Assembly (NCBI RefSeq): GCF_963921235.1 | Contig: NC_086097.1 | Coordinates: 4,712,001-4,776,000 of the forward strand | Direction of reading: 5' to 3' | Origin: Mobula hypostoma | Lineage: Eukaryota | Length of the DNA stretch: 64,000 bases | Shown here: in pieces, positions 3,040 to 59,522 of the stretch | Layout: the number at the start of each line of letters is the position of its first letter | How positions within the stretch are numbered: the stretch's first letter is position 1 | Translations under genes and position numbers: made by a program | The notes under the pieces: generated by a model | Seen by the model: only the letters and a program-made list of their open reading frames with translations | What the model was told of the DNA's origin: nothing | Databases searched by the model: none

Positions 3040-3420
3040 AGTACGACTCACCCCTCCGCCGCTCAGGCCGCCGATGCCGTCAAACTCCGGGCCGAGACCT
3101 GCCTGATCGTCCAGCACGTAGCCGGCAGCCCCCGGCATCGGCAGCAGCAACACGGCGCAGCACAGGAGGGCGAGCCCGGCAGCCGAGATCCGGGCCAGCC
3201 CGGCCATTGTCACCGTCCCGAAGGGAGCAGGCTCGGCTCAGCTGACCCGAACAGAACCGTCCCAAAAGGGGCAGGCTCGGTTCATTCGAACCGTACACCA
3301 CCGCAGGGACAAGCCGCGCTCAGCTGACCCGAACAGAGCCGTCACAAGGGAGGGAGCGGCGGCGTCACCAACTTCCCGAAGAAGCAGCACTTCCGCATGT
3401 CGTGGGCAGACCAACGGGAG
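3040..3420. promoter_or_regulatory. CpG island / GALC promoter and 5' UTR region
   Basis: GC- and CpG-dense segment overlapping exon 1 in an otherwise CpG-depleted window. Confidence 0.8.
3052..3207 (-). CDS. GALC: Galactocerebrosidase coding exon 1 (signal peptide plus start of the GH59 domain)
   Basis: ACAATGG Kozak start at 3207. Encodes 52 aa MAGLARISAAGLALLCCAVLLLPMPGAAG-YVLDDQAGLGPEFDGIGGLSGGG, followed by a GTGAGT donor at 3051. YVLDD..GLG.EFDGIG..SGGG is the GALC mature N-terminus. Intron 1 is 253-3051. Confidence 0.97.
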
Positions 3421-10079: not shown

Positions 10080-11086
10080 GTTGGATGATCAGCCATGATC
10101 ATAATAAATGGCGGTGCAGGCTCGAAGGGCCGAATGGCCTACTCCTGCACCTATTTTCTATGTTTCTATGAAATGCAGCAAGCTATAGAAATTAACAAAA
10201 GATATACACTGTTAAAAGTGGAATTAGTAGTTCGTAAGTAGTATCCTACTTATTGGAAATGCTCAGGGGGAAACCCCTGGAGCAGAGACGATATCGATAA
10301 AAGATTATGGAAGCCACTGCTATAACGAGCACCAGCTATAATGAGACAATATCAGCAGAGACTGGGGTCCAAGATTTCTGTCGTAGAACCAGGAATTAAC
10401 TCTGTTAAATTATACCAAGGGATTTGGTCAAGTTTTTTTTGTGTAGGTATTGTGAATCAACTTTCCGTGGATGACCTACCATTTCATTTAACGAACCAAG
10501 AGACAAGATGCTGAGCCACCCAAGATCGAAGAACCAAGTGGGAACAGAACGTTTCAAGATGTAGGGGATTTAGTACGGTTGGATGTACAAGTTTATTTCT
10601 CATTCAAAGAATCTGAATCTGATTATCTGGAAGAACTGATTATTTTTGCAAAGCCTTTTGATAAGTGACCGAATGAGATTTACTTTGTTTAAAAGTTGTG
10701 ATGTTGGAGAATTTGTTGTGAAAGTAGTTAAGCTGTTTATATATTTTGTGTTGAATTTGAATTTGTAAATATACTGACCTGAGACCGAAAGTGGTGTTAA
10801 CCATTATACTTAACAGCAGGAATTCAGTAAGTTCCCTAACTAACTAGGGATAAGTAAAAAGGCAAATGTTAATCTGTAAAACTTAAGTAGGGAATAACAC
10901 TGGATCTAATTAGTTAGAGAAATTGGAGTAATAAAGATGATGATTGTAACTAAAAAGGAATTTGGTTTTCATTTGAAATTTGAGATTTGGAACCTAAAAC
11001 AGAGTGCTTGAGTTTTGAGTTGTTCTTACTCAAGTAAATATTTTGTACATATTGCTATTTTTATAAAGAAATCTTACCTCCAGAAG

Positions 11087-11120
11087 GTCCTGACGAAGGG
11101 TCTCGGCCTGAAACGTCGAC
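11087..11120 (+). ncRNA. Minimal type I hammerhead ribozyme motif (Penelope type)
   Basis: gtc-CTGACGA-agggtctcggcct-GAAA-cGTC-gac. The core is intact, stem I is gtc/gac, and palindromic ACGT replaces stem-loop III. Confidence 0.75.
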
Positions 11121-11178
11121 TGTACCTCTTCCTATGGATGCTGCCTGGCCTGCTGCGTTCACCAGCAACTTTTATGTG
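11087..11178 (+). mobile_element. 92-bp Penelope-derived insertion with a 15-bp TSD
   Basis: Flanked by an exact TCTTACCTCCAGAAG at 11072-11086 and 11179-11193. Confidence 0.9.
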
Positions 11179-11337
11179 TCTTACCTCCAGAAGTGTGTTT
11201 TTTTTTATTTACTGCCTCCTTTTGATATCTAGAGCCCACTAGCAACTAGTGTAGTACTATGTACGTAGATTTTCTCATAAAGTGCAGCCACTAGTCACCA
11301 AGACCAGACCAGTGCTGCACAGGTGTTACATAAAACC

Positions 11338-22569: not shown

Positions 22570-22995
22570 CAAGAATGCCTTAAGGTTTTCCACTTCTTTC
22601 TTGACAACAGACTCAAGCACTTCCCCTCCCCACCACCCTCCGCTATCTGGCAGAACTGGTCCTCACACTCAACATCTTCTCCTTTTTCTCCTCTCACTTC
22701 CTCCAAGCTCAAGGTGTTGCCATGGGTTCTCACGTGTGCCCCAACTATGCCCGTCTTTTCATTGGCTGTGTGGAACAGCCTATGTTCCTAGCCTTCAATG
22801 ATAATGCTCTCCAACTCTTCCACTCTCCTACATTCTGATTTCTTCCTCTTCCTTTCCAGCCCTGATGAAGGGTCTCAGCCTGAAACATCAACTGTTTATT
22901 CTTCTCTATTGAAGCTGCCTGACCTGCTGAGTTCCTCCAGCATGTTGTGTGTGTTGCTCTGAATTTCCAGTGTCTGCAGAATCTTTTGTGTTTAT
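22570..22995 (+). mobile_element. Penelope-like fragment (RT remnant joined to the pLTR tail with a degenerate hammerhead)
   Basis: ggtgttgccatggg..cccaactatgcc (GVAMG..PNYA) followed by cctgatgaagggtctcagcctgaaacatc at ~22861. Confidence 0.75.
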
Positions 22996-26984: not shown

Positions 26985-27292
26985 GTATGGGAGTCTCAGG
27001 ACCCACACCACCACGTTATTAACCGTCAAGCATTAGGAAGAAGGTACAGGAACCTCAGGACCCACACCACCACATTATTACCCCTCAAGCATTAGGAAGA
27101 AGGTACAGGAACCTCAGGACCCACACCACCAGTTCAGGAACAGTTATTTCCCCTCAACATCAGAAAGAAGGTACAGGAGCCTCAGGACCCACACCAGCAG
27201 GTTCAGGAACAGTTATCACCCCTCAACCATCAGGAATAAGATAGAGGAGTCTCAGGACCCATACTATCAGGTTATTGCCCCTCAAGCATCAG
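26985..27292 (+). repeat. ~59-65 bp tandem repeat (~5 units) within a Rex-type 3' fragment (~26740-27645)
   Basis: Repeated aggaagaaggtacaggaacctcaggacccacaccacc...cccctcaa. Confidence 0.85.
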
Positions 27293-29057: not shown

Positions 29058-29724
29058 TTATCACAAAATGCAGGATGAACTCAGTAGGTCAGGCAGTATC
29101 TGTGGAAAAGAGTAAACAGTCGATGTTTCAGGCTGAGACCCCTCATCAGGACTGGAAAGAAAGAGGAAAAGTCAGAGTAAGAAGGTGGGGGAGAGGAGGA
29201 AGAAAGATATGGTGGTAGGAGAAACTGGGAGAGAGGGAAGGGTGAAGTAGAGAGCTCGGAAGTTGATTAATGAAGGATTTAAAGAGCTGGAAAAGGGAGA
29301 ATCTGATAGGAGGGGATAGAAGCCCGTGGGAGAAAGTGGTCCAGAGGGAGGTGATGGGGAGGGAAGAAAAGAAGGTGTGAGAGGGAATCAGGGTTGGGGA
29401 ATGGTGAAGGGTGGGAGCAATTACCGGAAGTTCAGGAAATCAATGTTCATGCTCCATTGGTGTGCATGTCCGCCAATCAACTTCCCAGCTCTGCACTTCA
29501 CCCCCTCCCTCTCTCCCAGTTCCACCTATCACCTACCACCTTGTACTCCTTCCTCCCCTCCTCTTACCTTCTTACTCTCATTTCTCTTCCTTTCTAATCC
29601 TTATGGAGGGTCTCAGTCTGAAATGGTGACTGTTCATTCATTTCCATAGATGATGCCTGACCTGCTGAGTTCCTCCAGCATTTTGTGTGTGTTTCCAGCA
29701 TCAGCAGATTTTCTTGTGTTTGTG
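29058..29724. mobile_element. Penelope-like inverted (minus plus plus) double-tail insertion
   Basis: Minus-strand tail with a hammerhead at ~29117-29155, then a plus-strand tail at ~29460-29724. Candidate TSD AGACATCCTT/AGGCATCCTT at 29048 and 29725. Confidence 0.78.
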
Positions 29725-37649: not shown

Positions 37650-39060
37650 GAGATGAGAAAATCTGCAGATGCTGGAGATCTAAACAACACACCCAAAACG
37701 CTGGAGGAACGCAGCAGAGTAGGCAGCATTGATGGAAAAGAGTACACAACACAGTCAACACAAAATACTCTGCAGATGCTGGGGTCAAAACAACACTCGC
37801 AACACGCTGGAGGAACTCAGCAGGTCGGGCAGCATCCGTGGAAAAGATCAGTCGACGTTTCAGGCCAGAACCCTTCGTCAGGACTGAAGAGGGAGGGGGC
37901 AGAGGCCCTATAAAGAAGGTGGGGGGAGGGTGGGAAGGTGAAGGCTGGTAGGTTCCAGGTGAAAAACCAGTAAGGGGAAAGATAAAGGGGTGGGGAAGGG
38001 AGGCAGGGAGGGGATAGGCAGGAAAGGTGAAGAAGGAATAAGGGAAAACACAATGGGTAGTAGAAGGAGGCGGAACCATGAGGGAGGTGGTCGGCAGCTG
38101 GGGGAGGGGGCAGAGTGAAATAGGGATAGGGGAAGGGAGGGGGAGGGAATTACCGGAAGTTGGAGAATTCAATGTTCATACCAAGGGGCTGGAGACTACC
38201 TAGACGGTATATGAGGTGTTGCTCCTCCAACCTGAGTTTAGCCTCATCATGGCAGTAGAGGAGGCCATGTATGGGCATATCTGAATGGGAGTGGGAAGCA
38301 GAGTTGAAGTGGGTGGCTACCGGGAGATCCTGTCTATTGTGGTGGACGGAGCGGAGGTGCTTAACGAAGTGGTCCCCCAATCTGCGTCGGGTTTCACCGA
38401 TGTAGAGGAGGCCGCATCGGGAGCACCGGATGCAATAGATGATCCCAACAGACTCACAAGTGAAGTGTTGCCTCACCTGGAAGGACTGTTTGGGGCCCTG
38501 AATGGTGGCAAGAGAGAAGGTGTAGGGACAGGTGTAGCACTTACGCTTACAGGGATAAGTGCCGGGTGGGAGATCCATGGGGAGAGATGTGTGGATCAGG
38601 GAGTCATGGAGGGACCGATCCCTGCGGAAAGCAGAGAGGGGTGGAGAGGGAAAGATGTGCTTAGTGGTGGGGTCCTGTTGAAGGTGGCGGAAGTTGCGAA
38701 GGATAATGTGTTGGATCCGGAGGCTGGTGGGTGGTAGGTGAGGACAAGGGGAACTCTGTCCCTGTTGTGGTGGCAGGAGGATGGGGTGAGGGCCGAAGTG
38801 CGGGAAATGGAGGAGATGCAGTTGAGGGCATCATTGATGACGGCAGAAGGGAAACCACGATCCTTAAAGAAAGAGGACATTTGCGATGTCCTGGAACGGA
38901 AAGCCTCATCCTAGGAGCAGATGCGGCGGAGACGGAGGAACTGGGAATAAGGAATGGCATTTCTGCATGTGGCAGGGTGGGAAGAGGTATAGTCGAGGTA
39001 GTTATGAGAGTCAGTGGGCTTGTAGAGGAGTCAGACTCTCATAACTACCTCCACTATACC
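37650..39060 (-). mobile_element. 5'-truncated Penelope-like element (RT C-terminus, GIY-YIG endonuclease, pLTR tail)
   Basis: ORF 38150-38578 reads FTCES.GIIYCIRC..C..LYIGET.R...PVATHFN...E...LQPLGMN. Upstream frames give SQFLRLRRICS and FFKDRGFP. The tail repeat occurs twice (37650-37750 and 37755-37890). Confidence 0.92.
37848..37887 (-). ncRNA. Minimal type I hammerhead ribozyme motif in the Penelope 3' region
   Basis: tcagtc-CTGACGA-agggttctggcct-GAAA-cGTC-gactga, with a perfect 6-bp stem I and an intact core. Confidence 0.8.
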
Positions 39061-51302: not shown

Positions 51303-51426
51303 GTGGAGAGAGTATCCCTCAGGATCAATGGATCGATTATGGTCCTGCTGTGGAGAGAGTATCTCTCAGGATCAATGGATCGATTATGGTCCTGCTGTGG
51401 AGAGAATATCCCTGAGGATCAATGGA
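51303..51426. repeat. 47-bp tandem repeat, about 2.6 units
   Basis: gtggagagagtatccctcaggatcaatggatcgattatggtcctgct starts at 51303, 51350 and 51397. Confidence 0.92.
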
Positions 51427-52715
51427 CTCCAAATCAGCTTCATTGATCACTTTGACATGTTTCGGAGAATTGAGATGTAACAGTGTATGGCCTATGGAGG
51501 AGTTAACAGAAGACCTGAAATGTGACAGTGCTATAAGTTATGCACTGAGGTCATTCTCATTTTTAATTTGTAGTTCAGCTTCAAGTTCACCTTTAATTGT
51601 CATTCAACCACGTAGATGAGTAGAGCCAAATGAAACAGCATTCCCCTGGAGTCAGGCTGCTAAACACCTACAGTCACACACCACACACAGCACATATAGT
51701 TATGATGGCAGAAAAATACATACAATCACAAAAAAATAATAGTATCCAAGTCCCTGAGTGGCATGGCCGGTAGATTGATGGTGTATGGGAAGTTGTCTTG
51801 GAGCTCCTCGCATTCTTCAGACTCCAGAAAAAGAAAAATATGTATGGATATCAATATTTGCAAAGCAGGATTGAAGTTACCTCTACCTTGTGTCGATGAA
51901 CAGGGAAGATGGTATTTAATTGTGTAGATGGGATGTAACATCAAGTGAGACATCATTCACTTATGTTCTATAGATACAACACAGTAACGAGCCCTTCAGG
52001 CCCAACGAGACTGCGTCACCAATTATACCCTTGTGACAAATTCACCCAGTAAACCATCCGTCTTTGGACTGTGGGAGGAAACCCACACAGTCACAAGGAG
52101 AACGTACACAGACCGTGGTGGGAAGATGATGATTTCACTGTCCCAGAAGGGAATTTCTTACACATAAATAGATTATTTAAATAAAAGTAATGCAATAGCA
52201 AAACCAAAACTCTATTTCTCAATGAAAATTTCAAGGAAAACCAAAGTCAATACACAATATCTCTTCTGCATTCATCATCATCATAGTCAGGTGCCGTGCC
52301 CAGTTTGAGCTTTGAATGCCATGGCCCACACACTCCTGTTTCGGGTCAAGTGGATCAATTCATTGGTATTCATTTCCAGTTCTCTGGCTGCTGTCTCCAT
52401 CATCATTTGTCTTTATCTTCCTCTTGCTTTCTTCCCTTCAATCTTTCCCATAATTACTGTGCATTCTAACCTCCTCTTTCCTAATCACATGTCCAATGAA
52501 GTTACGTTGCCTTTTCATGATCTCATACATTATTTCTCTTTTTGTGTTTGCTCTGTTCATGACATCCTCATTAGATATTTGTTTCGTCCATGATATTCTT
52601 TGTATCCTCCTCAAAAACCATGTCTCTGCTGCTTCAATTCAATTCCTCATGTTATTAGATATTGTCCAACATTCTGAGCCATATAACATAACTGGATAAA
52701 CGTAACATTTCAGTA

Positions 52716-52920
52716 ACACACATCAAAGTTGCTGGTGAATGCAGCAAGCCAGGCAGCATCTCTAGGAAGAGGTACCGTCGACATTTCGGGCCGAGACCTT
52801 TCGTCAGGACTAACGAAGGGTGCACCAATTCCTAGAGATGCTGTCTGGCCTGCTGCATTCACCAGCAACTTTGATGTGTGTTGCTTGAATTTCCAGCATC
52901 TACAGAATTCCTTGTGTTTG
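52716..52920. mobile_element. 205-bp fold-back Penelope-derived insertion with a 15-bp TSD
   Basis: TSD CGTAACATTTCAGTA / CATAACATTTCAGTA at 52701 and 52921. Inverted arms at ~52715-52768 and 52829-52882 surround a minus-strand hammerhead motif (~52777-52811). Confidence 0.9.
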
Positions 52921-54716: not shown

Positions 54717-54782
54717 ATGTCAACTTTTTCCATAATAATGGTACCGTCCTTTGCTTTCAAACATCCACCTGAAGAACAGAGG

Positions 54783-54882
54783 TGACCTGATGAAGGGTCT
54801 CGGCCTGAAACGTCGACTGCACCTCTTCCTATAGATGCTGCTTGGCCTGCTGCGTTTACCAGCAACTTTGATGTGTGTTGCT
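54783..54882 (+). mobile_element. 100-bp Penelope-derived hammerhead insertion with a 13-bp TSD
   Basis: TGAAGAACAGAGG occurs at 54770-54782 and 54883-54895. The insert contains CTGATGA-agggtctcggcct-GAAA-cGTC-gactg. Confidence 0.9.
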
Positions 54883-55644
54883 TGAAGAACAGAGGAGCTT
54901 TTTACCTGTGATATTCTTGATTTCTTGATGCAACCTTTTTAGATGAGTAATAGGGATTCTTTCTCTTTGCTCACATTCCTGGTTTAACCACTCTTCTTTG
55001 GCTTTTAATTTTCTGCATTAATGACCAAATTTAAATAAATGAAAATAATACTGCAGAAACGGTAATTAAATATAATCTATTTTGCTCCTGGGAAATCTGT
55101 GCTATAAACCTGTACAGTTATTGTCCTCATGTGGATGAAGTGACTGAAGACAGGAAGGGCGCACTGTTGTTTCTACATGAAATGAATGACAGATTTCCCT
55201 ACGAGTTTCTATGTTGCCCCTAGCTATTGTCAGAAAGAACAGTGTTCTAACTGCTTTTGTTAAATGTATGCATAATTTGGTAATTTCCTGAAAGTTTTAC
55301 AGCAGCCAGTTGCTTCTAGTGCTCTGTTGGATCTAACCCAGATAACATTAACAACAAATAATTTGGTTATACCAAGCAAATATATATCTTGAATTATTTA
55401 TTTAGTAGTAATTTTGTAGCCTATTCTTATGAAAAGGAGGTAGTGATATCAGGTACACCCAATGGAGTATATTTAGACCATCTTAGTGAAGAAAGGTTGA
55501 AAATAATTGTGTTACTAATGTTTGAAGGTGTAATAGGAATCAGTCCCATGCCAATGAGAAAGATCAGCATCCCTGATAGTGACAAATTTCTCAGAGTAGA
55601 AACATAACTGAATGATAATTTACACTGACAAGAGATGTCAGAGA

Positions 55645-55955: not shown

Positions 55956-58268
55956 CCCTCATTTGAGGGCACTATGAAGAACCAGGTTTGGAATTACTAT
56001 TTCTAAATTTTAAAATACTGACCAAGATTGCAGATGGCTCAATATGGTAATGAATTTGATTGGAACGAAACCTCATCATATACACAGATTCAAAATATTA
56101 TTGTACCAGTTTTTTATGAGAAACTTTTAATGAAAATTCAGCCTATATTTTTCTTTCATTTATAGCAACAAATGTGTTACAACTTCAGTGTAAATTGCAA
56201 CAGTTGAAAGTTTGCAAACTTTATGTATGTTTATAAGAGATACAGTGTGGAACAGGCTCTTCCAGACCAATGGACCGCCCCGCCCAGCAGTCCACTTACT
56301 CACCCCTGGCCTAATCTCGGGACAATTTACAATGACCCATTAACCTGCATACTGGTACAGCTTTGGACTGTGGAAGGAAACCCACGCGGTCACAGGGAGG
56401 GGCATACAAGCTCCATACAGATGGAGCCAGAATTGAACTCTGAACTCTGTAGCATTGGGCTAGCTACAACGCCACCATAGTGTCCCATCGAGGTGCATGT
56501 CACAAACACAGGAAATTTTGCAGGTACTGGAAATCCAAAGCAAAACAGACAAAATGCTGGAGGAACTCAGCAGGCCAGGCAGCATGTATGGAAAAGAGTA
56601 ACTAGTTGATGTTTTGGGCTGAGACCCTTCATCAGGAACATGCAGGTTTGGTTTACTGCAATGAAGTACTTTTGGCGTTAAGTTTGAAAATTACAAAATC
56701 AGCGTTTCAGTTTATCTCGCGTGTTTCTCAGTTTCTATTAAAGGCTCATTTGGTAAGGATCTAATCAGTGGTTATAAGGAAACTACTACAGCTGACAGAA
56801 ATGGAGATGACTCCTCAGCGGCAGGGTGCGGTAATTATGTTAATCTATTCGCATCTGGCAAGCCATTAGTTTAATGTCACAGACAATGATTTAGAAATAA
56901 ATTCTTGGTGGATCCAGAATGAAGATTCATTTATTGTATCCTGAAACCTGGAAACCTCACAATCCATTTTGCTGATTTTCTGCATTGCACTTCATGGATT
57001 GATGCTTCAGAAAACAGAACACAATTTATACTTGACTTTTCTACCGCCAAATCTTATCAAGTGAATCTAAAGGAGTGAAGAAACACCCAGAAAGAACTTT
57101 AATAAACTACTTCCGATTACATTCAGATTTTGTCTTCTTCTTTCATGTAAGTATAAAGAAAGATTCAAGATTCAAGCAGCACATACAAAATGCTAGAGGA
57201 ACTCAGTAGGCCAGGCAGCATCTAGGCAAAGTGTACAGTGGACATTTCAGGCCGAAATCCTTCGGTGGGACTCTGCATTTTTGTGTGTTGCTCCGATTTC
57301 CAGTACCTGCAGATTTTCTTTTGTTTGTGATTCAAGATTCAAGATTGTTTAATGTCAAGAGTAAAGGAGAACAAATAATTGTTTACTGGATCTGATGCAG
57401 CACAAAAAAAAGCAATAAGATAAAGAACATAATAATAAAAAAACACAATAAACATAAATATATCAGATAGCTTATATACTTAGATTTATTGTATTCCATA
57501 AAGTGACTCTAGACGCAGGAGTGTCTGTACATAAGGTGACTCTGACAGGAAATGATAAAGTAGTGGTGATTGGGAATGTGGTGGGTAGGTTAGCGGGTGG
57601 AGCTGTTGATCAGCCTTGCTGCTTGGGGAAAATAACTGTTTTTGAGTCTGGTGGTCCTGGATGGATGCTACGTAACCTCCTCCCTGATGAGAGTGGGAGT
57701 AACACCATCCTTCATGAAGTTACTGGCCCTTTTCTGACATATTTCTGTGTATATGTCCTTGATGGTGGGTAGGTTTGAGCGGGTGATGCGTTGAGTAGTT
57801 TTGACTACCCACTGTGGAGCCTTCCTGTCCGCTGCAGTGCAGTTTCCATACCGCGCAGTGACGCTGCACGTTAGGGTACTCTCTACCGCACATCTGTAGA
57901 AAGACTTTGAGCGTAGTCCAGCTCTCTTCAGCCTGCTCAGAAAGCAGAGGTGTTGGTGTGTAGAATATGTATAAGTGGTTGTGCGTGATGAAAAATATAA
58001 CATCTCTGAGAGGAATCTTATTGTGAAGTTGTGAAATTTGCTGTGATTTGTTCTGTGGTCTGGCACGGATGGCGACAATATGGACAATCTTACATGTTCC
58101 ACATGTCGAACAAATGGCCTCTGCCAATCCCATTGAGTCCTGGCCACTGTCTTTGGGGAGGTTAAAGCCAGGAATCTCTGTTAGCGATCAGGTGTTGAGG
58201 TGTTTGCTTTCTCTGTTGAATTCATCACACATCGATCAGGACATGTCTACAGAAAGCTGCCAGAAAAA

Positions 58269-58403
58269 GGCCAATAACATCATAAAGGACCCCACTCACC
58301 CGGCCAATAACATCATAAAGGACCCCACCCACCCGGCCAATAACATCATAAAGGACCCCACCCACCCGGCCAATAACATCATAAAGAACCCCACCCACCC
58401 GGC
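58269..58403 (+). repeat. 33-bp tandem repeat x4 within a Rex-type fragment
   Basis: ggccaataacatcataaaggaccccacccaccc starts at 58269, 58302, 58335 and 58368 and encodes ANNIIKDPTHP. Confidence 0.95.
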
Positions 58404-59522
58404 TCATGGACTGCTTGTCGCACTTCCGTCAGGAAGGAGGCTACGTAACATCCACGCCAGAGTCACCAGACTCAAAAACTGTTACTTTTCCTATAACTCA
58501 GGACCTCGAGTCCTAGCAACATTCTTGTAAGTATTCTTTGACTTTTCCAGATTATAGATACGTCTTTAAGACGTGACTGCATAAAATTATATGATTTCAG
58601 TTATTAACACAAGAAAGCCTGCAGAAGCACACACGCAAAATGCTGGAGGAATTCCGCAGACCAGACGACATCAAAGGAAAAGGATTAGCAGCGGATGTTT
58701 TGGACTGAGAGCCTTCTTCAGAAGAGTGTTCATTTATTTATTTAGCAATACAGTGCCCTTCCAGCCCAACAAGCCACCCCACCAGCAACCCATCTATTCA
58801 AACCTAGCCTAATCGCAGTAAAGTTCACAATGAACAATTAATCTAATAACCGGTATGTCCTTGGACCGTGGGGGAGAACCAGACCATCCGTGGGACACCC
58901 ATGCGTTTCATGGGTAGAACATACAAGTTGCTTAGAAATGGTGCTGGAATTTCAGAGTGCGCTGTGCTGTAACCGAGTTGCTGTAACCACCACTCCACTG
59001 CGGTGATCTTCATACATTGTCAAACAAGGCTCTGCTGTTTGGTTTCAGAAGGTTTTCCTGCATTAAACGATGACTTATTGTTATCTGGTGCTCAGTTATC
59101 TCAGTTATAGTGGTTGCGACAATAAACCCACAGGCACCACACTGGCCTTGGCACAAGGATATGGTTGTTTGTGAGAGTAATACAAAACTGTGTTACAGAA
59201 ATGTGAGCATTATTTTACTTCTAGTTACAGCAAAGTAATGGGCCTTCCGGTCCAATGAGCCCACACTGGCCAGTCACACCCATGAGACCAGTTAACACAT
59301 TGACCCATACACCTTTGACATGTGGGAGGATACTGAGCACCCGGCCACGGGGAGAACATACAAACTCAGTATTCAACCTAAGTTTATTATCCAAGTACAT
59401 ACAGTATATCTCACCATATGCAACCCTGTGATTCATTTTCACAAGCGAAGTCACAATAATAGATAAATAAGCAACAAATATTGTGAACATAAGGATGAAG
59501 GGTTCCTGAAAGTGAGTCCATA

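What the first reader, a model, noticed from the sequence alone, without database searches (positions are those of the whole stretch)
11072..11193. A 92-bp TSD-flanked insertion that is little more than a hammerhead ribozyme
Seen: an exact 15-bp TSD brackets 92 bp that begin at stem I of an intact hammerhead core (gtc CUGACGA agg..ccu GAAA cGUC gac), followed by ~58 nt of Penelope tail. A near-identical unit at 54783-54882 also starts within 4 nt of CUGA and has its own 13-bp TSD. Known: Penelope-like elements carry minimal hammerheads. Inference: the shared 5' boundary suggests either a non-autonomous ribozyme mini-retroelement family (retrozyme-like) mobilised by Penelope enzymes, or a strong reverse-transcription stop at the ribozyme fold.
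Basis: partly seen in the sequence, partly recalled or inferred. Interest (0 to 1): 0.75.

Follow-up and report, generated by a model that had tools for sequence, protein, structure and literature searches.

The report
Short Penelope retrocopies starting at hammerhead
The 92-base insertion is a very short, probably dead copy of a Penelope-like jumping gene that begins right at its self-cutting RNA motif, and thousands of other copies in this genome begin at the same two or three bases, which hints at where the element's RNA starts.

Summary
An exact 15-bp duplication (11072-11086 / 11179-11193) brackets 92 bp made of a minimal hammerhead motif plus 58 nt of tail. A second unit (54783-54882, 13-bp duplication) matches it at 85 of 92 positions. 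Long relatives carry a GIY-YIG endonuclease frame about 390 nt upstream and the two alternative 3' ends typical of Penelope-like elements (PLEs).

The shared 5' boundary is real genome-wide. Counts of "4 unrelated bases + 22-mer" peak at -4/-3 before CUGA (3,865 and 2,340). They fall to 49-427 at -32, -11 and -8 to -6, and to 234-572 at 0 to +28. In an unbiased held sample, 18 of 61 copies end at -5..0.

There is no peak at the ribozyme cleavage site. I found no private clade: U19 is 71.7% in short copies and 75.1% in long ones. Head-to-tail arrays are nearly absent (18 junctions).

Best reading: these are by-products of autonomous PLEs. Reverse transcription starts inside the tail and runs to a discrete RNA 5' end at helix I, probably a transcription start. 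RNA evidence was not obtainable. The object is ordinary; the sharp endpoint is a modest lead that I did not find in print.

The parts
11072..11086 (+). left target-site duplication, TCTTACCTCCAGAAG
   Evidence: exact 15-mer repeated at 11179
11087..11178 (+). 92-bp PLE retrocopy: hammerhead motif plus tail, ending at the short-form 3' end
   Evidence: 99-100% identical to the 3' part of longer PLE copies
11087..11089 (+). helix I 5' strand (GTC, positions -3..-1)
   Evidence: pairs with GAC at 11118-11120; read from sequence
11090..11096 (+). CUGACGA core box
11098..11109 (+). helix II hairpin GGGU-CUCG-GCCU, after the bulged A at 11097
   Evidence: sequence; 94.7% of cells paired in 66 distinct copies, but no covariation
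11110..11117 (+). GAAA box, then CGUC; predicted cleavage after C 11117; the ACGU palindrome stands in place of helix III
   Evidence: sequence; matches the published min-HHR description (PMC4209133 passages)
11118..11120 (+). helix I 3' strand (GAC)
   Evidence: sequence
11121..11178 (+). 58-nt PLE 3' tail ending in ...TTTTATGTG
11179..11193 (+). right target-site duplication
54770..54782 (+). left 13-bp duplication of unit 2 (TGAAGAACAGAGG)
54783..54882 (+). second short PLE retrocopy (100 bp), from a different subfamily haplotype
54883..54895 (+). right 13-bp duplication of unit 2
57162..57343 (-). third duplication-flanked insertion (15-bp CTTGAATCTTGAATC on the - strand). It holds a 56-nt inverted long-tail piece joined head-to-head to a unit that starts at A(-4).
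52712..52887 (-). head-to-head pair of PLE tail copies with the junction in the hammerhead region
37682..37886 (-). longer PLE copy (GIY-YIG frame upstream at 38153-38467), followed in tandem by a partial unit that starts near the cleavage site (+28)
56540..56637 (-). older short copy of another subfamily, starting 1-2 nt before CUGA
58629..58721 (-). older short copy starting at about CUGA

Best explanation
The 92 bp are a very short retrocopy of an autonomous, endonuclease-bearing Penelope-like element, probably dead on arrival and probably of the Neptune-like type. The element's own enzyme nicked the target, which gave the 15-bp duplication. It began cDNA synthesis at an internal site in the 3' tail and copied the RNA up to a discrete 5' end at A(-4)/G(-3), the first bases of hammerhead helix I.

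I favour a transcription start in the pseudo-LTR as the source of that end. Any copy that keeps its promoter would then emit a short RNA (hammerhead + tail + read-through) whose full-length cDNA is 92-140 nt.

Shown: the PLE identity, the duplications, the two 3' ends, the genome-wide peak, and that short and long copies share the same variant pool. Inferred: that the peak is an RNA end, and that this end is a transcription start.
For: PLE identity
- Long relatives extend at least 1.5 kb upstream.
- They carry GIY-YIG: Pfam 26.3 bits against a cutoff of 22.6.
- L034 holds a 623-aa open frame with a CX4CX2C linker.
- Its nearest Atlas clusters carry RVT_1 and GIY-YIG.
- Two 3' ends about 43 nt apart match the published PLE 'tail', which is explained by two internal RT start sites (PMC11167929).

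Peak in whole-genome counts of 4 non-family bases + 22-mer
- Upstream: -32: 184; -11: 49; -8: 427; -7: 391; -6: 262; -5: 883.
- Peak: -4: 3,865 (about half are continuous upstream sequence of other subfamilies); -3: 2,340; -2: 1,071.
- Inside: -1: 549; 0: 572; +3: 342; +6: 234; +28: 411.
- Copies running on to -11 number 49,881.
- A second subfamily shows the same contrast: 277 at -3, 54 at -8, 1,423 long.

Unbiased sample (window + 20 arbitrary 10-kb loci, 61 copies)
- 21 run on upstream; 1 ends at -13; 18 end at -5..0; 13 end inside; 8 lie in head-to-head pairs.
- Binomial P = 3e-13 for 18 of 32 simple ends falling in 6 of 86 positions.

Other support
- Duplications of 12-15 bp abut the boundary in 4 young copies.
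- Upstream flanks are diverse and purine-rich at every boundary tested, as expected of real junctions.
- Palindromic GGAC|TAGTCC junctions show two cDNAs ending at the same spot.
- YYA(-4)GTCC fits an initiator consensus (recalled), and an A/T-rich box lies 25-30 nt upstream in most subfamilies (by eye).
- In D. virilis the pseudo-LTR holds the promoter and start site (PMC2377424).
- The Anolis PLE shows raised RNA cover at the pLTR-ORF junction, where its hammerhead sits.
Against: - There are no RNA data. No raw RNA run was on offer, and contigs cannot show starts.
- In D. virilis the mapped start lies about 121 nt upstream of the hammerhead, not at it.
- The tract before helix I also reads as a branch point + polypyrimidine tract + AG. 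In D. virilis an intron ends exactly at helix I. A splicing-related or protein-roadblock origin therefore fits equally well.
- G(-3), the highest raw count, does not follow a pyrimidine as a classical start would.
- No extra cap-derived G is evident (by-eye tallies).
- No full-length element was held, so I could not check that full-length insertions begin with a [-4..tail] partial unit.
- The initiator and TATA readings are by eye or from memory, not from a tool.
Confidence: 0.5

Rival explanations
1. Reverse transcriptase stops or falls off at the 5' edge of the hammerhead-tail module. The cause could be that the enzyme's own RNA-binding part grips that module. Alternatively, proteins bound to the 3'-splice-site-like tract just upstream (branch point, pyrimidine tract, AG) could block the enzyme on unspliced nuclear RNA.
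For: - The end coincides with the first paired base of helix I.
- A textbook-like branch point / pyrimidine tract / CAG-TAG sits immediately upstream in all subfamilies.
- In D. virilis an intron ends at helix I.
- PLEs are known to copy unspliced RNA (PMC8557442 passages).
- The background of ends is about 2-5 times lower upstream than inside (against 35, 61).
Against: - A structure-induced stop is expected on the 3' side of a fold, not after it has been copied.
- In the Anolis PLE assay, product length followed the template's 5' end from -126 inward, and ribozyme mutants did not change product size.
- The peak is only 2-3 nt wide.
Confidence: 0.25
2. The 92-140-nt hammerhead-tail unit is a self-propagating non-autonomous retroelement (retrozyme-like or SINE-like). 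It would be transcribed from its own copies and mobilised in trans by PLE enzymes.
For: - The unit holds the RT entry site. If the start site is at -4, it may also keep downstream core-promoter elements.
- D. virilis Penelope has an internal promoter.
- Copy number is high: scaled estimates give about 15,000 for one family.
- PLE-derived retrozymes are proposed in print (bioRxiv 10.64898/2026.07.22.740005; PMC7229834).
- Two tandem arrays with hammerhead boxes were glimpsed (145-bp and 327-bp periods).
Against: - U19 share is 1,678 of 2,340 (71.7%) in short copies against 37,459 of 49,881 (75.1%) in long ones. This is statistically different (P = 2e-4) but small, and the short set is mixed with other subfamilies.
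- The T55 variant, first seen only in short copies, also occurs in the long copy L034.
- The two window units differ at 7 of 92 positions, and each matches long-copy haplotypes.
- The 92-mer is 99% identical to long copies.
- Only 9 + 9 head-to-tail junctions exist genome-wide.
Confidence: 0.1
3. The boundary is a joining artefact. Purine-rich target ends would anneal to AG/AAG microhomologies in the cDNA, so that apparent ends pile up at AG sites.
For: - Upstream flanks are purine-rich and often end in G (44 of the first 100 rows, by eye).
- The peak bases are A and G of an AG.
Against: - The best microhomology site, GAAGGG at +5..+10, shows no peak: 234 at +6.
- The window copy has no overlap between duplication and element.
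- A purine site at -32 gives 184.
Confidence: 0.05
4. The short copies are cDNAs of hammerhead-self-cleaved RNA.
For: One partial tandem in the window starts at +28 (37.7 kb).
Against: - Cleavage would leave a 5' end at +28, but the copies start 31 nt upstream of that.
- The count at +28 is 411, and 34 of the first 100 rows are recurrent rearrangement classes.
- In vitro, uncleaved RNA is the main template.
Confidence: 0.02

Closest known systems
5'-truncated copies of canonical endonuclease-positive Penelope-like elements carrying a single minimal hammerhead (Cervera & de la Pena 2014, PMC4209133)
   Same: Minimal type I hammerhead without a helix III hairpin, sitting in the terminal repeat region. 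That paper states that most motifs occur singly and are 'probably related to truncated PLEs', and that pairs occur on opposite strands 100-700 bp apart.
   Different: In the passages I read, that paper gives no endpoint distribution. Here the 5' ends form a 2-3-nt peak at the first bases of helix I.
Poseidon PLE of Anolis (PAc): internal initiation of reverse transcription (Frangieh et al. 2024, PMC11167929)
   Same: Two alternative 3' ends 30-40 bp apart; both DNA strands are cut and extended, which fits the head-to-head pairs here; the hammerhead is not needed for insertion.
   Different: In PAc the ORF starts inside the hammerhead. Here the frame from the AUG variant stops after 33 codons. 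The 5' ends of genomic copies are not analysed in the text I read.
Non-LTR retrozymes of animals (Cervera & de la Pena 2020, PMC7229834; Li, Clavereau & Pollet 2026 preprint)
   Same: Short hammerhead-bearing non-coding repeats with long duplications, co-occurring with PLEs and related to their terminal repeats. Monomers are seen as offspring that cannot transpose.
   Different: Retrozymes are tandem repeats of about 170-400 nt expressed as circular RNAs. These units are 92-140 nt and dispersed, and head-to-tail junctions are nearly absent.
Drosophila virilis Penelope regulatory region (Schostak et al. 2008, PMC2377424)
   Same: The promoter and start site lie in the terminal repeat. An intron ends exactly at the 5' end of hammerhead helix I, and the element here has a splice-acceptor-like tract at the same place.
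   Different: There the start site is 46 nt + a 75-nt intron upstream of the ribozyme. Here the retrocopy ends sit at the ribozyme itself.
Full-length peak among 5'-truncated LINE insertions (recalled, not looked up)
   Same: A discrete class of copies ending at the RNA's own 5' end, standing over a spread of truncated copies.
   Different: Here the 'full-length' class would be only about 100 nt long, because priming is internal and the start lies near the 3' end of the unit.

Membership tests
Canonical EN+ Penelope-like element (copy of) | C-terminal GIY-YIG endonuclease in the element's ORF | tested here: met
   L004 piece: PF01541, 26.3 bits against a cutoff of 22.6, E 9e-6. The L034 whole frame scores 20.4 bits, below the cutoff. 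The window copy itself holds no ORF.
Canonical EN+ Penelope-like element (copy of) | Telomerase-like reverse transcriptase | tested here: inconclusive
   Pfam RVT_1 is not matched at E<=0.01 and there is no PDB relative. RT-like motifs were seen by eye. 22 of the 30 nearest named Atlas clusters share one Pfam set, HTH_animal/DUF8422 with RVT_1 or GIY-YIG. No phylogeny was done.
Canonical EN+ Penelope-like element (copy of) | Optional 30-40-bp 'tail' extension at the 3' end | tested here: met
   Copies end either at ...ATGTG(TGTTGC) or about 43 nt further on at ...GTGTTTGC.
Canonical EN+ Penelope-like element (copy of) | Heavy 5' truncation with partial tandem and inverted arrangements | tested here: met
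   Truncation points are spread over 1.5 kb. There are 4 head-to-head pairs among 61 copies and a partial tandem at 37.7 kb.
Neptune/Nematis-type PLE | [quoted passage not shown] | tested here: met
   CKRNKCYTC lies just before GIY-YIG in L004 and L034. The criterion is taken from PMC8557442 passages. This is only a lead without a tree.
Minimal PLE hammerhead (min-HHR) | CUGANGA and GAAA boxes, GUC cleavage triplet | tested here: met
   nearly invariant in 75 copies.
Minimal PLE hammerhead (min-HHR) | 4-bp helix II with an extra base after position 9 and a G10.1-C11.1 pair | tested here: inconclusive
   The pairing is possible (94.7% of cells). There is no compensatory change. The window copy has G.U at 10.1-11.1.
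Minimal PLE hammerhead (min-HHR) | Helix I of about 6 bp | tested here: not met
   3 bp inside the 92-mer; 5 bp (one a G.U) in longer copies.
Minimal PLE hammerhead (min-HHR) | No helix III hairpin; palindromic 15.2-16.2, implying action as a dimer | tested here: met
   ACGU at 11113-11116.
Minimal PLE hammerhead (min-HHR) | Self-cleavage | not testable with these tools
   No Rfam hammerhead model matches. The minimum-energy fold is not the hammerhead.
Non-LTR retrozyme | Head-to-tail tandem repeats of the unit | tested here: not met
   9 junctions after the long tail and 9 after the short tail in 3.48 Gb, against thousands of solitary units.
Non-LTR retrozyme | Unit-length linear and circular RNAs | not testable with these tools
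   No RNA run with raw reads was available.
Non-LTR retrozyme | A lineage of its own, distinct from the autonomous element | tested here: not met

The most novel reading that the evidence does not exclude
In this PLE lineage the pseudo-LTR start site lies at the first base of hammerhead helix I. The ribozyme would then be the first ~32 nt of every PLE RNA, and self-cleavage would remove just the capped leader. Hammerhead + tail would be the complete cis-acting module: start site, ribozyme and RT entry site. That module could be re-transcribed and re-mobilised as a retroelement of about 95-140 nt, among the smallest known.
Probability: 0.12. Interest if true: 0.8.

Novelty: new member of a known kind. 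Interest (0 to 1): 0.42.

Why it matters
The role of hammerheads in Penelope-like elements is still called unclear in the literature I read (PMC8557442 passages). The RNA 5' end of vertebrate PLEs is not mapped in those texts either.

A sharp pile-up of retrocopy 5' ends at the first bases of helix I, seen in two subfamilies, gives a concrete position to test with 5'-end mapping. For one family it amounts to about 15,000 scaled copies against about 50,000 longer ones. It also bounds the smallest RNA that the enzyme copies in vivo.

On the practical side, scaling the held density of all PLE hammerhead-tail copies (short and long) gives roughly 0.7-1.2 million per genome. The ~100-nt units among them should be annotated as PLE ends, not as retrozymes, SINEs or stand-alone ribozyme genes.

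Tried and rejected
The endpoint scan was therefore done by whole-genome pattern counts instead of full mapping.
I could not link the 5' boundary to the +55 variant genome-wide.
- Rfam: no family at gathering score in the window, and no hammerhead at E<=10 around the insert.
- Covariation: none. 91.4% of cells are paired, the same as in shuffles.
- Folding: z = 0.31.
- RNA: no RNA holder was listed and all 24 runs are Logan contigs. Laying 4 runs gave no starts or ends (table 6: none). Loose ends near the 5' and 3' borders are mixed with subfamily divergence, so I do not use them.
- Pfam RVT_1 and PDB: no match.
- Supplements of PMC11167929: no searchable text.
- Models rejected: cleaved-RNA template, AG-microhomology artefact, private clade at U19 and T55, tandem arrays.
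- A trans-hammerhead cut at UUA/G(-3) was considered on paper and dropped, because the needed helices do not pair.
- The exon-joining idea (spliced RNA copies) was dropped. The held copies that end at -2 have unrelated upstream sequences.
- Lunse et al. 2017 (dimeric PLE hammerheads) is recalled only; it is not in the library.
- Earlier scan notes: nothing for this genome.

Full report
WHAT IS THERE

TCTTACCTCCAGAAG occurs at 11072-11086 and again at 11179-11193. The 92 bp between read GTC-CUGACGA-A-GGGU/CUCG/GCCU-GAAA-CGUC-GAC followed by 58 nt. A second unit (54783-54882) lies between two copies of TGAAGAACAGAGG and matches the first at 85 of 92 positions.

Chance does not explain this. Shuffled windows gave 0-2 direct 13-mers at such spacing. 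The core pattern hits 12 times in the window against 0.27 expected.

The word 'intact' needs care. Helix I is 3 bp inside the insert, and there is no helix III hairpin (only the palindrome ACGU). No Rfam model matches. The helices show no covariation in 66 distinct copies. The minimum-energy fold is neither the hammerhead nor better than shuffles. The motif does fit the published minimal PLE hammerhead, which is thought to act as a dimer (PMC4209133, passages).

WHAT ELEMENT IT BELONGS TO

The 92-mer has at least 514 candidate matches in its 3.48-Gb genome. Most relatives run on upstream into a conserved pyrimidine-rich stretch, and many run on about 43 nt downstream. Some extend at least 1.5 kb upstream, with truncation points spread widely.

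About 390 nt upstream of the tail end lies a frame with a GIY-YIG domain (Pfam, above the cutoff). It is preceded by a CX4CX2C linker and RT-like motifs. One held copy keeps a 623-aa frame open to the end of the locus.

Pfam RVT_1 and PDB gave nothing. The nearest Atlas clusters carry RVT_1 and GIY-YIG.

The two alternative 3' ends are the PLE 'tail', which Frangieh et al. explain by two internal start sites of reverse transcription (PMC11167929, main text). So the insert is a PLE copy. The linker motif suggests the Neptune/Nematis type (criterion from PMC8557442 passages), with no tree behind that.

IS THE SHARED 5' BOUNDARY REAL?

Unbiased sample. A profile of the 106-nt core found 118 copies in the held DNA: 22 in the window, 41 in 20 arbitrary 10-kb stretches, and 55 in loci fetched by similarity. 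Of the 63 unbiased copies, 61 had full flanks:
- 21 run on upstream
- 1 ends at -13
- 18 end between -5 and 0 relative to the C of CUGA
- 13 end inside the unit
- 8 form four head-to-head pairs

Eighteen of 32 simple ends falling in 6 of 86 positions has a binomial P of 3e-13. The classes rest on a match threshold (a score of 12 or more of 16 was reached by 2 of 300 random 16-mers) plus my reading of the table.

Whole-genome counts. I therefore counted, genome-wide, patterns made of four bases that all differ from the family sequence followed by the next 22 family bases:

| First element base | Count |
|---|---|
| -32 | 184 |
| -11 | 49 |
| -8 | 427 |
| -7 | 391 |
| -6 | 262 |
| -5 | 883 |
| -4 | 3,865 |
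| -3 | 2,340 |
| -2 | 1,071 |
| -1 | 549 |
| 0 | 572 |
| +3 | 342 |
| +6 | 234 |
| +28 | 411 |

All reversed-pattern controls were 0.

By-eye tallies of the first 100 rows show that several counts are inflated by recurrent classes:
- 49 of 100 at -4 are the continuous upstream sequence of other subfamilies.
- 54 at -8, 49 at -5, 36 at -1, 28 at 0 and 34 at +28 are repeated rearrangement or palindrome junctions.

The -3 rows are mostly diverse and purine-rich. 16 look like other subfamilies, and 14 are AAGG, which may be an internal duplication.

Copies that run on to -11 number 49,881. A second subfamily gives 277 at -3, 54 at -8 and 1,423 long copies.

The peak at -4/-3 is therefore real and 2-3 nt wide. 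After scaling for the four-mismatch filter it is worth roughly 15,000 copies of this family (a rough figure).

WHAT THE PEAK IS NOT

- It is not the ribozyme cleavage site. That lies 31 nt downstream and shows no peak.
- It is not a microhomology artefact of purine-rich target ends. The GAAGGG site inside the ribozyme shows no peak.
- It is not, on present evidence, a private lineage.
  - The U19 variant is carried by 71.7% of short and 75.1% of long copies. The difference is significant but small, and the short set is mixed.
  - A T55 variant that at first seemed confined to short copies also occurs in a long copy.
  - The window's two units belong to different haplotypes, each shared with long copies.
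  - The 92-mer is 99% identical to long copies.
- Head-to-tail junctions of units are nearly absent: 9 after the long tail and 9 after the short tail. The tandem architecture that defines animal retrozymes (PMC7229834 passages; preprint Results) is therefore not met.

HOW IT MOST LIKELY WORKS

Shown: target duplications of 12-15 bp abut the boundary. 3' ends fall at the two tail sites. Head-to-head pairs are common, including perfect GGAC|TAGTCC palindromes in which both arms end at -4/-5. A foldback within a single 15-bp duplication lies at 57162-57343. This fits an enzyme that nicks and extends both strands and primes inside the tail.

Inferred: the cDNA usually ends at -4/-3 because the RNA ends there. 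I favour a transcription start.
- YYA(-4)GTCC resembles an initiator (recalled consensus).
- An A/T-rich box lies 25-30 nt upstream in most subfamilies (by eye).
- In D. virilis the terminal repeat holds the promoter and can drive downstream transcription (PMC2377424).

Any copy that keeps that promoter would then make a short RNA whose full-length cDNA is the 92-140-nt unit.

Against this reading:
- No RNA data could be had.
- The D. virilis start lies about 121 nt upstream of its ribozyme.
- The same tract reads as branch point + pyrimidine tract + AG, and in D. virilis an intron ends exactly at helix I.

A stop at a protein-bound acceptor site or at the edge of the enzyme-bound module therefore remains a serious rival. 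A stop at the far side of a fold is unusual, though, and the Anolis enzyme copies through its ribozyme in vitro.

COMPARISON AND NOVELTY

It is in print that single minimal hammerheads are mostly truncated PLEs. The same holds for the tails, the inverted and tandem arrangements and the heavy truncation, and for the view that retrozymes derive from PLE terminal repeats.

I did not find a report of a discrete 5'-end peak at helix I. The searches were (37 papers, 25 listed), plus term searches inside six papers. Supplements and subscription journals were not seen.

VERDICT

The object is an ordinary PLE by-product. The endpoint regularity is a modest, testable lead on where PLE RNA begins and on what the hammerhead sits next to.

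Noticed in passing
window 57162-57343 (- strand): A single 15-bp duplication (CTTGAATCTTGAATC) encloses a foldback: a 56-nt inverted long-tail piece joined to a unit that starts at A(-4). It looks like two cDNAs from one integration event.
   Followed up: partly
window 54876-54895, 57162-57185; L020: At the 3' junction the target duplication overlaps the element's own next bases (TGAA / CTTGAAT of ...GTTGCTTGAA...). This suggests microhomology between the nicked target and the first RT start site. In vitro, the start site was reported as non-homologous to the cleaved DNA.
   Followed up: no
positions -30..-3 before CUGA in all subfamilies (e.g. L003-L028 central copies; window 22830-22861, 29150-29180): There is a branch-point-like CTTAC/TTTAT, then a pyrimidine tract, then CAG or TAG directly before helix I. 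This is the same place where an intron ends in D. virilis Penelope. Whether these PLEs hold an intron there is open.
   Followed up: partly
G000:C2:12242905-12243220 and G000:C1:147388450-147389129 (seen only as pattern rows): Three hammerhead boxes lie 145 bp apart, and three lie 327 bp apart, on one strand. These are rare tandem arrays that could be retrozyme-like. They were not fetched.
   Followed up: no
L034 8131-9999 (- strand): A PLE copy in an arbitrary 10-kb stretch keeps a 623-aa frame open up to the edge of the locus, followed by a complete tail. The family may have been active recently.
   Followed up: partly
genome-wide rows: Recurrent junction classes occur: CTAA|CTGA, TCGT|CTGA, TCAG|GACTG, TCCT|GACTG, GAAG|AGTTAG, GGAC|TAGTCC. 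They point to repeated template switches or deletions at short homologies within the hammerhead, including across helix I.
   Followed up: partly
window 26995-27200, 51318-51405, 58269-58390: Minisatellite-like tandem repeats with periods of about 59, 47 and 33/66 bp, unrelated to the finding.
   Followed up: no
window 3236-3255 and 3318-3337: An exact 20-bp direct repeat (GCTCAGCTGACCCGAACAGA) 82 bp apart, about 250 bp upstream of another PLE tail copy. Unexplained.
   Followed up: no
frame through the hammerhead: In CUGAUGA variants the AUG in the core opens a 33-codon frame that stops in the tail extension. This differs from the Anolis PLE, whose main ORF starts there.
   Followed up: no
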